From the sequence record OQ442786: DNA of 44,509 nt; one strand, written 5' to 3'. The notes below the pieces were generated by a model. That model was not told where the DNA came from. It ran no database searches and worked only from the letters and a program-made list of their open reading frames with translations. This DNA comes from Escherichia phage JSSK01. A program made the translations under genes and the position numbers. Shown here piece by piece: positions 16,593-16,951 of the stretch. Position 1 is the stretch's first letter; the number at the start of each line of letters is the position of its first letter.

Positions 16593-16784
16593 CTACTTCT
16601 CTTTCACGTTCGAGTTGCAAGCCCATATTAAAATAAATACCCACGGCAGAAGAACCCAGCCAAGAAACAGGTTAGCCATGAATATAGCTAACTTCGCTTT
16701 ATGGTTACGGAAGTACGCAACCAGGAAAGGCGCGAAATAAGCTAGCAGTGCAAACAGAATTAAGGAAACTGGTAAACTGGACAT
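16593..16784 (-). CDS. superinfection-immunity-like small membrane protein
   Basis: start reassigned to second ATG (AAGGGG SD); YFAPFLVAYFRNHKAKLAIFMANLFLGWVLLPWVFILIWA resembles the Imm_superinfect family signature. Confidence 0.6.
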   Translation of the reverse strand: MSSLPVSLILFALLAYFAPFLVAYFRNHKAKLAIFMANLFLGWVLLPWVFILIWACNSNVKEK

Positions 16785-16814
16785 TTTAAACCCCTTCATT
16801 GTTGGTGTAAGTGA

Positions 16815-16843
16815 ATAGTACCCTATTATATTGAGGCGCGCAA
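16815..16843 (-). promoter_or_regulatory. promoter TTGCGC-17-TACTATTCA driving the accessory operon
   Basis: same architecture as plus-strand early promoters at ~40039 and ~41735. Confidence 0.5.
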
Positions 16844-16951
16844 GTAATGTGATAGAATAATTTTGCGCCTAGTGTCGCACACGAAAAGTGGGTGGTTCCC
16901 GTCTGGCGCATTTACCGTTAACCTGAAACCTCTTAACCAAAGGATTAAAGA

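What the first reader, a model, noticed from the sequence alone, without database searches (positions are those of the whole stretch)
16593..16845. Superinfection-immunity-like membrane peptide expressed from an early-type promoter
The 63-aa product matches the Imm-type superinfection immunity signature and is hydrophobic throughout. Its promoter (TTGCGC-17-TACTATTCA) has the same architecture as the plus-strand early promoters at ~40039 and ~41735. That implies early expression, as expected for a protein that blocks DNA entry by a second phage.
Basis: partly seen in the sequence, partly recalled or inferred. Interest (0 to 1): 0.55.

Follow-up and report, generated by a model that had tools for sequence, protein, structure and literature searches.

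The report
Imm-type membrane gene in a Kagunavirus
This is a real, conserved 63-residue membrane protein of the phage T4 Imm family, already annotated as a "superinfection immunity protein" in closely related E. coli and Salmonella phages; it probably stops later-arriving phages from delivering their DNA, but neither that function nor its claimed early timing has been tested.

Summary
A 63-codon ORF lies on the minus strand at 16593..16784. It starts at an ATG with a Shine-Dalgarno sequence and is under strong purifying selection (dN/dS 0.01-0.10). It matches Pfam PF14373 Imm_superinfect at 48.6 bits (cut-off 27.9) and T4 Imm directly (E 2e-10). Both T4 residues reported as needed for exclusion are conserved (R33/W50 = R26/W43).

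The window is a Kagunavirus (Guernseyvirinae), a group described as strictly lytic. Identical or near-identical proteins are already annotated as "superinfection immunity protein" in relatives such as Bas74, EM1 and RefSeq K1G. This is a known kind of gene.

The promoter TTGCGC-17-TACTAT is present. It is part of a 37-nt block found exactly three times (16844-, 40038+, 41734+; none expected by chance). Its -35 and -10 elements keep 17-bp spacing in Jerseyvirus.

"Early" is an inference. The one Kagunavirus time course available puts the homologue in the last-peaking gene class, though that experiment is coarse.

Function is inferred from T4, where Imm is reported to bind the tape measure protein. 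Here the gene sits divergently next to the tail-chaperone/tape-measure operon in three Guernseyvirinae lineages. PF14373 also includes members in non-phage chromosomal contexts, so membership does not prove exclusion.

Side finding: an int-alpA-like RNA leader at 16862..16929 (+).

The parts
16593..16784 (-). imm-like CDS: 63 codons plus TAG stop
   Evidence: ORF list and sequence; PF14373 at 48.6 bits; dN/dS 0.01-0.10; AlphaFold2 pLDDT 94.7 with helices 3-16, 18-25, 31-41, 45-55.
16791..16796 (-). Shine-Dalgarno AAGGGG, 6 nt before the ATG at 16784
   Evidence: Read from the sequence. An SD-proximal ATG is the conserved start in relatives.
16838..16843 (-). -35-like hexamer TTGCGC (TTGCAC in Bas74, K1ind1 and the two plus-strand copies)
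   Evidence: The CTTGC core is invariant in 8 Kagunavirus and Jerseyvirus sequences.
16815..16820 (-). -10-like hexamer TACTAT, 17 nt from the -35. The start site predicted from it is near 16808 (inferred, not measured).
   Evidence: It aligns with TATTAT at the same 17-bp spacing in Jerseyviruses.
16813..16828 (.). Palindrome TAATAG-GGTA-CTATTC overlapping the -10; putative operator for an unidentified regulator (inferred)
   Evidence: AATAGNNNNCTATTC with up to 1 mismatch: 16 strand-hits, mostly both strands of about 9 loci, 7 of them at promoter-like positions (16813, 29893, 33292, 36412, 36457, 40054, 41750), against 0.6 expected. Also present at the imm promoter of Jerseyviruses. Published as a PHIRE consensus in phage fBC-Eco01 (PMC9825357).
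16825..16853 (-). Alternative promoter candidate ATCACA-17-TATAAT (10 of 12 matches); judged less likely
   Evidence: Found by the scan. Neither hexamer is conserved in Jerseyviruses or at the two plus-strand copies.
15424..16554 (-). Next gene in the same leftward unit: 376-aa calcineurin-like phosphoesterase / 'DNA repair exonuclease'. No terminator lies between it and imm.
   Evidence: ORF list; Metallophos_2 match, sub-threshold (24 bits vs cut-off 27); annotation in relatives.
15197..15427 (-). Third gene of the leftward unit: 76 aa, no family match
   Evidence: a homologous slot is present in Bas74.
15172..15191 (-). Intrinsic-terminator-like hairpin plus T-run that would end the imm transcription unit. 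It is bidirectional (also 15175-15188 on the + strand).
19574..19654 (+). Codons 621-647 of the tape measure protein: its only strongly hydrophobic segment. Candidate target region on an incoming phage's TMP, by analogy only.
   Evidence: Hydropathy scan; TMP_3 match, sub-threshold (38.7 bits vs cut-off 41); T4 Imm-TMP binding reported in bioRxiv 10.64898/2026.03.06.709160.

Best explanation
The gene encodes a small inner-membrane protein of the T4 Imm family (PF14373) in a Kagunavirus, a siphovirus group described as virulent. It is transcribed leftward from its own sigma-70-type promoter. It is the first gene of a short inverted cassette (imm, phosphoesterase/exonuclease, 76-aa protein) set inside the rightward tail-gene cluster.

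The protein is predicted to form two kinked hydrophobic helices joined by a basic loop (RNHKAK). By the positive-inside rule the loop would face the cytoplasm. Once in the membrane of an infected cell, it most likely blocks genome delivery by phages that adsorb later. This is superinfection exclusion in the strict sense, not repressor-type immunity.

The most likely mechanism is the one reported for T4 Imm: binding the membrane-active part of the incoming phage's tape measure protein, so that the inner-membrane conduit does not open.

Shown here: the gene is real, it belongs to the family, the two T4 functional residues are conserved, it has its own promoter, and its position next to the chaperone/tape-measure operon is conserved. 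Inferred: membrane topology, the exclusion phenotype, the tape-measure target, and the time of expression.
For: Family and homology: PF14373 at 48.6 bits against 27.9. T4 Imm itself scores 58.2 bits on the same model. Direct BLASTP to T4 Imm gives E 2e-10 over 54 residues. PHROG 1039, E 1.4e-22.

Conserved residues: invariant columns across Kagunavirus, Jerseyvirus, Klebsiella phage and T4 include R26 and W43. These correspond to T4 R33 and W50, whose alanine mutants lose exclusion activity in the T4 study. P19, R26, H28, G42, W48 and W54 are invariant in 82 diverse homologues.

Structure: the AlphaFold2 model has pLDDT 94.7 and four helical segments. The only BFVD fold matches are annotated phage Imm proteins, with TM-scores (normalised to the query) of 0.68-0.74 for the five matches at probability 1.00. 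Hydropathy shows two hydrophobic stretches and a basic loop.

Selection and distribution: dN/dS 0.01-0.10. tblastn hits in 375 phage records, mostly Guernseyvirinae. No match in 5,426 complete E. coli genomes.

Synteny: the gene is divergent from the tail assembly chaperone / tape measure operon in Kagunavirus, Jerseyvirus and Klebsiella phage 37P2. In 37P2 it is the only inverted gene between the tube and chaperone genes.

Target plausibility: the window's TMP has one hydrophobic segment, as T4 gp29 does.

Promoter: the -35 and -10 elements keep 17-bp spacing across two genera.
Against: No functional test exists for any Guernseyvirinae Imm homologue in the literature searched.

The window's TMP shows no sequence similarity to T4 gp29 (E 1.1), so the target cannot simply be transferred from T4.

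PF14373 is very large: 7,668 50%-identity clusters at E <= 1e-3. Some members lie in non-phage chromosomal neighbourhoods, for example next to minCDE and ruvB. The domain is therefore not diagnostic of exclusion.

In T4, MyoSmar and henriette the imm homologue is not near the TMP gene, so the synteny is lineage-specific.

The K1B4 time course places the homologue in the last-peaking class. That fits poorly with a protein that should act within minutes.

The protein lacks most of T4 Imm's N-terminal helix and all of its C-terminal tail.
Confidence: 0.6

Rival explanations
1. It is an Imm-family membrane protein whose main role is to protect the already infected cell envelope. This would mean resistance to lysis from without or secondary-adsorption damage, or tuning of lysis timing, and not blocking DNA entry as such.
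For: T4 Imm is also credited with resistance to lysis from without, to 'secondary traumatization' and to premature collapse of lysis inhibition, and is said to resemble a holin (review PMC6832632). The K1B4 study found late-peaking expression of the homologue. It is a small two-helix membrane protein.
Against: The separate holin/endolysin/spanin genes annotated in the close relative Bas74 lie elsewhere in the genome. The T4 residues tied to exclusion are conserved. No similarity to holin families appeared in Pfam or PHROGs.
Confidence: 0.17
2. It acts as self-immunity. [quoted passage not shown] That would explain why the gene is kept next to the chaperone/TMP operon.
For: Adjacency to the TAC-TMP operon is conserved in three Guernseyvirinae lineages. 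The T4 study itself draws the colicin-immunity analogy and shows Imm-TMP binding. The TMP has a hydrophobic membrane-type segment. Late-peaking expression in K1B4 would coincide with TMP synthesis.
Against: It is purely inferential. In T4 and other phages imm is not linked to the TMP gene. Tail assembly chaperones already handle the TMP in the cytoplasm (established knowledge). The adjacency could be an inherited insertion slot.
Confidence: 0.08
3. It is a generic PF14373 small membrane protein with a function unrelated to phage-phage conflict, and the 'superinfection immunity' label is carried over by annotation only.
For: The family is very large and includes chromosomal members in housekeeping neighbourhoods. 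There is no NCBIfam or PADLOC model for it. Names in the databases derive from the Pfam label.
Against: Within virulent phages a strongly conserved membrane protein sharing the tested functional residues of T4 Imm is most simply explained by the same activity. Direct pairwise similarity to T4-like phage Imm proteins reaches 42-50% identity over the core.
Confidence: 0.14
4. It is not a gene: a chance ORF in an intergenic or regulatory region.
For: It is short, and it lies in a divergent regulatory region.
Against: HMM E-value 7.5e-13; dN/dS 0.01-0.10 with many synonymous changes; SD and promoter present; conserved in 375 phage records.
Confidence: 0.01

Closest known systems
Phage T4 Imm (NP_049660 / P08986), founding member of Pfam PF14373
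   Same: Same Pfam domain, covering the whole 42-position core. 28% identity over 54 residues, E 2e-10. R33/W50 are conserved as R26/W43. Small inner-membrane-type protein of a phage group described as lytic.
   Different: 63 aa against 83 aa: the N-terminal helix is shorter and the C-terminal tail is absent. The phage is a siphovirus whose TMP is unrelated in sequence to gp29. The gene lies beside the TMP operon here, but between genes 42 and 43 in T4. Function is untested here.
'Superinfection immunity protein' genes annotated in Guernseyvirinae (for example Bas74_0023, Schulenberg_026, K1G RefSeq, LPSE1 gp46)
   Same: Orthologues at the same locus. Proteins 95-100% identical occur in HSE2, EP-M-A, Bas74 and K1ind1. 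Similarity to T4 Imm was already noted in print for Schulenberg (PMC6763661).
   Different: Several records use an upstream start (68 aa, and 109 aa in Schulenburg) that is not supported by conservation. Some records call it hypothetical or omit it.
HK97 gp15 (superinfection exclusion through the tape measure protein)
   Same: A membrane protein of a siphovirus proposed to block genome entry by interacting with the incoming TMP, as cited in the T4 study. This is the mechanism proposed here.
   Different: No sequence relationship was tested or found here. HK97 is temperate and gp15 is expressed from the prophage (my own knowledge of Cumby et al. 2012, not checked with the tools).
P22 SieA, T5 Llp and the Cor proteins (other phage-encoded entry blocks)
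   Same: Phage-encoded envelope proteins that stop later phages at or before DNA entry (SieA paper listed).
   Different: Unrelated families with other targets, such as receptor masking for Llp and Cor (my own knowledge). Nothing links them to this protein.
[quoted passage not shown]
   Same: Small inner-membrane helical proteins that neutralise a membrane-inserting helical-bundle domain. The analogy is drawn by the T4 Imm-TMP study.
   Different: Functional analogy only. No homology was detected in Pfam or PDB searches.

Membership tests
Pfam PF14373 Imm_superinfect | Whole-protein HMM score above the curated gathering score (27.9 bits) | tested here: met
   48.6 bits, E 7.5e-13, profile positions 2-42 of 42. 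T4 Imm scores 58.2 bits on the same model.
Pfam PF14373 Imm_superinfect | Core motif YF.P..VA..R.H....AIF..N..LGW..LGW...L.W | tested here: met
   P19, R26, H28, G42, W48 and W54 are invariant, and Y16, F17, A23, I34, N38, L41 and W43 are at least 90% conserved, in 82 homologues. The one departure is P47 where most members have G.
Pfam PF14373 Imm_superinfect | Two hydrophobic helical stretches joined by a short basic loop | tested here: met
   Hydropathy and charge map. AlphaFold2 helices 3-16/18-25 and 31-41/45-55, pLDDT 94.7. Fold matches only to annotated Imm proteins.
T4 Imm-type superinfection exclusion (function) | Residues needed for exclusion in T4 (R33, W50) are present | tested here: met
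   R26 and W43 align to them and are invariant across the phage homologues compared. Mutant data from bioRxiv 10.64898/2026.03.06.709160.
T4 Imm-type superinfection exclusion (function) | Expression alone lowers plating or DNA entry of the cognate phage | not testable with these tools
   Needs a plating or DNA-entry experiment. No published test for Guernseyvirinae was found.
T4 Imm-type superinfection exclusion (function) | Direct binding to the tape measure protein of the incoming phage | not testable with these tools
   Only single chains can be modelled here. The window's TMP has a hydrophobic segment (621-647) but no similarity to gp29.
T4 Imm-type superinfection exclusion (function) | Made early in infection | tested here: inconclusive
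   It has its own sigma-70-like promoter, conserved across genera, and shares a block with the promoters of small-gene arrays. However, the K1B4 RNA-seq places the homologue in the last-peaking class. No start-site data exist.
Known anti-phage defence systems (PADLOC) and NCBIfam named families | Match to any curated model | tested here: not met
   No hit at E <= 0.1 in either library.

The most novel reading that the evidence does not exclude
In Guernseyvirinae the Imm-like protein and the tape measure protein may form a linked pair. The imm gene is kept divergently next to the chaperone/TMP operon in three lineages. Its promoter is back-to-back with the promoter-like site of that operon and shares a palindromic operator with it. 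The operon's transcript would start with a conserved int-alpA-like structured leader. On this reading, one regulator bound at the palindrome switches between imm and tail/TMP transcription. Imm acts on the TMP, either that of incoming phages (exclusion extended from myoviruses to siphoviruses with an unrelated TMP) or the phage's own (colicin-style self-immunity).
Probability: 0.15. Interest if true: 0.5.

Novelty: already known. Interest (0 to 1): 0.2.

Why it matters
As it stands, this confirms an existing annotation, so it matters little on its own.

It gains some value from a 2026 preprint reporting that T4 Imm works by binding the tape measure protein. Kagunaviruses are small and tractable, and several are in the BASEL collection (Bas70-76). 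They carry a minimal 63-aa Imm next to an unrelated tape measure gene. That makes them a convenient system to ask whether TMP-targeted exclusion is general among tailed phages, and what sets its specificity.

There is also a practical point. Phages of this group are used in cocktails against E. coli and Salmonella, and an exclusion gene could make related cocktail members interfere with each other.

Tried and rejected
NCBIfam and PADLOC scans gave no match.

A profile search of PDB sequences found no relative; the only hits were chance matches to PSII-W at E 0.65-0.85.

The imm-plus-promoter DNA has no match in 5,426 complete E. coli genomes, so it is not a prophage gene there.

The first literature search for Jerseyvirus transcriptomics returned only irrelevant papers. 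The second found no time course. The K1B4 paper's supplements hold no per-gene expression values, so the 'late' call could not be examined.

The alternative promoter ATCACA-17-TATAAT, the scan's best hit, was rejected as the main promoter. Neither hexamer is conserved in Jerseyviruses or at the two paralogous sites.

The 68-aa start was rejected because there is no SD and the ATG is not conserved as a start.

I considered whether the phage's 60-aa HTH protein (39438..39734 -, HTH_17) is an AlpA-type antiterminator that loads at the palindrome. P. aeruginosa AlpA is a larger, differently built protein, and its binding element is a 6-bp site (PMC9371919). No claim is made.

An Imm-TMP co-variation test across genomes was considered but not run. 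The genes are adjacent and the sample falls into two tight clades, so linkage and phylogeny would dominate the result.

A multimer model of Imm with the TMP could not be made, because the tool takes single chains of window sequences only.

The terminator-like hairpin inside the ORF (16671-16692) is taken to be chance. It has only 3 G-C pairs and lies in a conserved coding stretch.

Full report
IDENTITY OF THE WINDOW. The 2-kb region around the finding is 95.1% identical to Escherichia phage BUCT825. It is 90-93% identical to Bas74 (SonjaBuckley), EM1, K1G, ST20 and many other Kagunavirus genomes, with weaker matches to Salmonella Jerseyviruses: 290 phage records in all. These are small Guernseyvirinae siphoviruses, described as strictly lytic.

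THE OBSERVATION. The minus strand is open from 16799 to 16593 (68 codons), and an inner ATG at 16784 gives the 63-aa product. That ATG follows AAGGGG with a 6-nt spacer, whereas the upstream ATG has no ribosome-binding site. In Schulenburg and in four Jerseyviruses the upstream ATG is out of frame or followed by a stop, while an SD-proximal ATG is conserved. The 68-aa (Bas74) and 109-aa (Schulenburg) annotations look over-extended.

- Pfam: PF14373 Imm_superinfect at 48.6 bits (gathering 27.9), E 7.5e-13, covering the whole 42-position model.
- PHROGs: family 1039, 'immunity to superinfection', E 1.4e-22.
- Selection: substitutions against relatives are overwhelmingly synonymous, with dN/dS of 0.013 (Bas74), 0.054 (K1ind1), 0.054 (Schulenburg core) and 0.10 (LPSE1 core).

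The gene is real and constrained.

RELATION TO T4 Imm. T4 Imm, read from NC_000866, scores 58.2 bits on the same Pfam model. It aligns to the window protein with E 2e-10, at 28% identity over 54 residues. An alignment of Kagunavirus, Jerseyvirus, Klebsiella-phage and T4 proteins has invariant P19, A23, R26, F35, L39, W43, W48 and W54.

A 2026 preprint (bioRxiv 10.64898/2026.03.06.709160) reports that T4 Imm co-purifies with a fragment of the tape measure protein gp29. It also reports that the R33A and W50A mutants lose exclusion activity. These residues correspond to R26 and W43 here.

The window protein is a minimal version. It has a shorter N-terminal helix and lacks T4's 20-residue C-terminal tail.

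STRUCTURE.
- Hydropathy shows two hydrophobic stretches (about 4-25 and 32-55), a basic loop RNHKAK and a polar C-terminus.
- An AlphaFold2 model built on 82 homologues has pLDDT 94.7 and pTM 0.75, with helices 3-16, 18-25, 31-41 and 45-55. That amounts to two kinked hydrophobic helices, with W43 in the short loop between the last two segments.
- A Foldseek search of viral predicted structures returned Imm-annotated proteins of Aeromonas, Serratia, Pseudomonas and Mycobacterium phages, plus two unnamed entries (five hits with query-normalised TM-score 0.68-0.74, probability 1.00; a sixth with TM 0.50, probability 0.69).
- No family member is in the PDB copy.
- A cytoplasmic loop with both termini outside is inferred from the positive-inside rule. 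It agrees with the periplasmic N-terminus cited for T4 Imm.

THE PROMOTER. TTGCGC (16843-16838), 17 nt, TACTAT (16820-16815), TCA is present as described. The similarity to the two plus-strand sites is much longer than the hexamers. A 37-nt pattern matches with no mismatch at 16808-16844 (-), 40038-40074 (+) and 41734-41770 (+) and nowhere else, and it gave no match in 100 shuffles (alignment).

The two plus-strand copies each precede an SD and an ATG that open arrays of small genes of 51-86 aa. That is the layout usually seen for early genes, but this is an inference.

Across genera, an alignment of eight Kagunavirus and Jerseyvirus intergenic regions keeps CTTGC and TAyTAT at the same 17-bp spacing while the spacer sequence changes. 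It argues against the scan's higher-scoring ATCACA-17-TATAAT, which is not conserved.

The shared block contains a palindrome, (T/G)AATAG-N4-CTATTC, overlapping the -10.
- The palindrome gives 16 strand-hits against 0.6 expected, falling at about 9 loci, 7 of them at promoter-like positions.
- Three of those loci lie in the spacer of near-consensus leftward promoters, TTGACA-N3-(G/T)AATAG-N3-GCTATTATAGT, upstream of replication genes.
- The motif was reported earlier as a PHIRE 'phage promoter' consensus in fBC-Eco01, where it was ascribed to a phage RNA polymerase (PMC9825357).

It is more likely the site of a shared regulator, so promoter similarity need not mean a shared time class.

TIMING. 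No start-site data exist. One RNA-seq time course of a Kagunavirus (vB_Eco_K1B4; nearest relatives ST20 and XY1) lists the 'superinfection immunity protein' gene among the 11 genes that peak at 110-120 min. That class also holds the DNA methylases and DNA polymerase. Only four genes were called early (PMC12645636).

The design was MOI 100, sampling far beyond the 30-min latent period, with classes assigned by peak time, and no per-gene values were accessible. This is weak evidence, but it does not support 'early'. In T4 immunity appears within minutes of infection; that statement is from my own knowledge of Lu and Henning 1989 and was not checked here.

CONTEXT.
- Transcription unit: imm is the first gene of a leftward unit. 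It is followed by a 376-aa calcineurin-like phosphoesterase, annotated 'DNA repair exonuclease' in relatives (15424-16554). Next comes a 76-aa protein (15197-15427), and the unit ends at a bidirectional terminator (15172-15191).
- Position: this inverted island sits inside the rightward tail-gene cluster. It lies between the tail tube gene (13205-14377) on one side and the tail assembly chaperone (16952-) and tape measure gene (17714-20002) on the other.
- Conservation: the arrangement 'imm divergent from chaperone/TMP' holds in Kagunavirus, Jerseyvirus and Klebsiella phage 37P2. In 37P2 imm is the only inverted gene between the tube and chaperone genes.
- Limits: it does not hold in T4, Serratia MyoSmar or Vibrio henriette.
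- Target: the window's TMP has one strongly hydrophobic segment (residues 621-647), as gp29 does (237-255), but the two TMPs share no detectable similarity.

The TMP-binding mechanism is therefore a reasoned analogy and not a demonstrated property.

CAVEAT ON THE FAMILY NAME. A profile search found 7,668 50%-identity clusters at E <= 1e-3, and a second search returned more than 6,000 PF14373 proteins. Some lie in ordinary chromosomal neighbourhoods, such as beside minCDE, ruvB and ferrochelatase or among IS elements and a phasin gene. Another lies on a small mobile element in Salmonella. The label 'superinfection immunity' rests on T4 Imm alone. Within phages regarded as virulent, and with the T4 functional residues conserved, the T4-like role remains the best reading. 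I put it at about 0.6.

VERDICT.
- Family membership holds.
- The shared promoter architecture holds.
- Early timing is unproven, and the only available data point the other way.
- Exclusion is untested.

The gene is already annotated in many relatives, and its likeness to T4 Imm has been published for phage Schulenberg (PMC6763661). Novelty is therefore 'already known' and interest is low (0.2). The modest added value lies in four points: the start-codon correction, the cross-genus promoter evidence, the conserved link to the TMP operon seen against the new T4 mechanism, and the adjacent RNA element.

SIDE FINDING. The + strand at 16862-16929 lies just downstream of an extended -10 promoter-like site, TTGAGG-16-TGaTAGAAT (16831-16858), and 22 nt upstream of the chaperone ATG. 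It matches Rfam RF02996 (int-alpA RNA) over the full model at 27.2 bits (gathering 35.8), E 5e-4. The same position gives 32.5, 30.9 and 26.2 bits in Schulenburg, K1ind1 and LPSE1. RNAalifold, run independently on eight sequences, recovers a closing stem and two hairpins, and three of the pairs are kept through changes on both sides. All scores are below Rfam's threshold and only two lineages are sampled, so this is a candidate and not a call.

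Noticed in passing
window 16862..16929 (+): Candidate structured RNA leader of the tail assembly chaperone / tape measure operon. It matches Rfam RF02996 int-alpA over the full model but below threshold: 27.2 bits here and 26-32.5 bits at the same place in Schulenburg, K1ind1 and LPSE1, against a gathering score of 35.8. RNAalifold recovers a closing stem plus two hairpins, with 3 pairs kept through double changes between Kagunavirus and Jerseyvirus.
   Followed up: partly
window 16813, 29893, 33292, 36412, 36457, 40054, 41750 (start of each 15-16-bp site): The palindrome (T/G)AATAG-N4-CTATT(C/A) occurs at seven promoter-like sites. It gives 16 strand-hits against 0.6 expected (about 9 loci in all). 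There are two promoter classes. In one it overlaps the -10 of CTTGCAC-type promoters (imm, 40039, 41735). In the other it lies in the spacer of near-consensus TTGACA-17-TATAGT leftward promoters of replication genes (29917, 33316, 36436). It is probably the operator of an unidentified regulator. It was published as a 'phage RNA polymerase promoter' consensus in fBC-Eco01.
   Followed up: partly
window 16786..16911 (-): This 41-codon ORF, annotated as a hypothetical protein in Bas74 (Bas74_0024), overlaps the imm promoter and the RNA element. Between genera 5 of 7 changes are non-synonymous, and LPSE1 has a stop after 17 codons. The conservation is therefore at the nucleic-acid level and the ORF is probably not a gene.
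   Followed up: partly
window 16831..16858 (+): Extended -10 promoter-like site TTGAGG-16-TGaTAGAAT pointing rightward. It is back-to-back and overlapping with the imm promoter, and its -35 abuts the palindrome. The TGATAGAAT element is conserved in the Kagunavirus sequences compared.
   Followed up: partly
imm N-terminus, window 16710..16784 (-); Schulenburg L003 1425..1500: Kagunavirus imm genes come in two versions with unrelated first helices (MSSLPVSLILFALL... and MTGITMFFLIIIVL...) but a nearly identical core from about residue 26 onward. Both are common (clusters of 201 and 111 sequences). This suggests a module swap within the gene.
   Followed up: partly
window 14406..15077 (-): A Rha / KilAC-antirepressor-type gene (Phage_pRha 69 bits, ANT 38.5 bits) lies just beyond the terminator of the imm cassette. 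The slot is variable: nothing is there in Bas74, and a polynucleotide kinase/phosphatase is there in K1G, K1ind1 and others.
   Followed up: partly
window 16671..16692 (-): A terminator-like hairpin with a T-rich tail lies inside the imm coding sequence. It has only 3 G-C pairs and sits in a protein-conserved stretch. One outer pair changes G-C to A-T between the window and Bas74 through two synonymous changes. It is probably chance.
   Followed up: no
L011 6001..6267; L010 6001..6273; L008 5146..5337: PF14373 proteins occur outside phages. One lies directly after minC-minD-minE and near ruvB in a bacterial genome, one among IS110 elements and a phasin gene, and one on a small Salmonella element with an AAA_25 protein and a resolvase. 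The family's name overstates what is known about most members.
   Followed up: partly
window 39438..39734 (-): A small HTH_17 (excisionase/MerR-like) protein, probably 60 aa from MSHYMTQNEV, is the first leftward gene at the main divergent promoter region. It is annotated as 'excisionase and transcriptional regulator' in Bas74. An HTH-domain gene (not mapped to this ORF) is the only early gene with an annotated function in the K1B4 time course. It is a candidate for the palindrome-binding regulator, but this was not tested.
   Followed up: no
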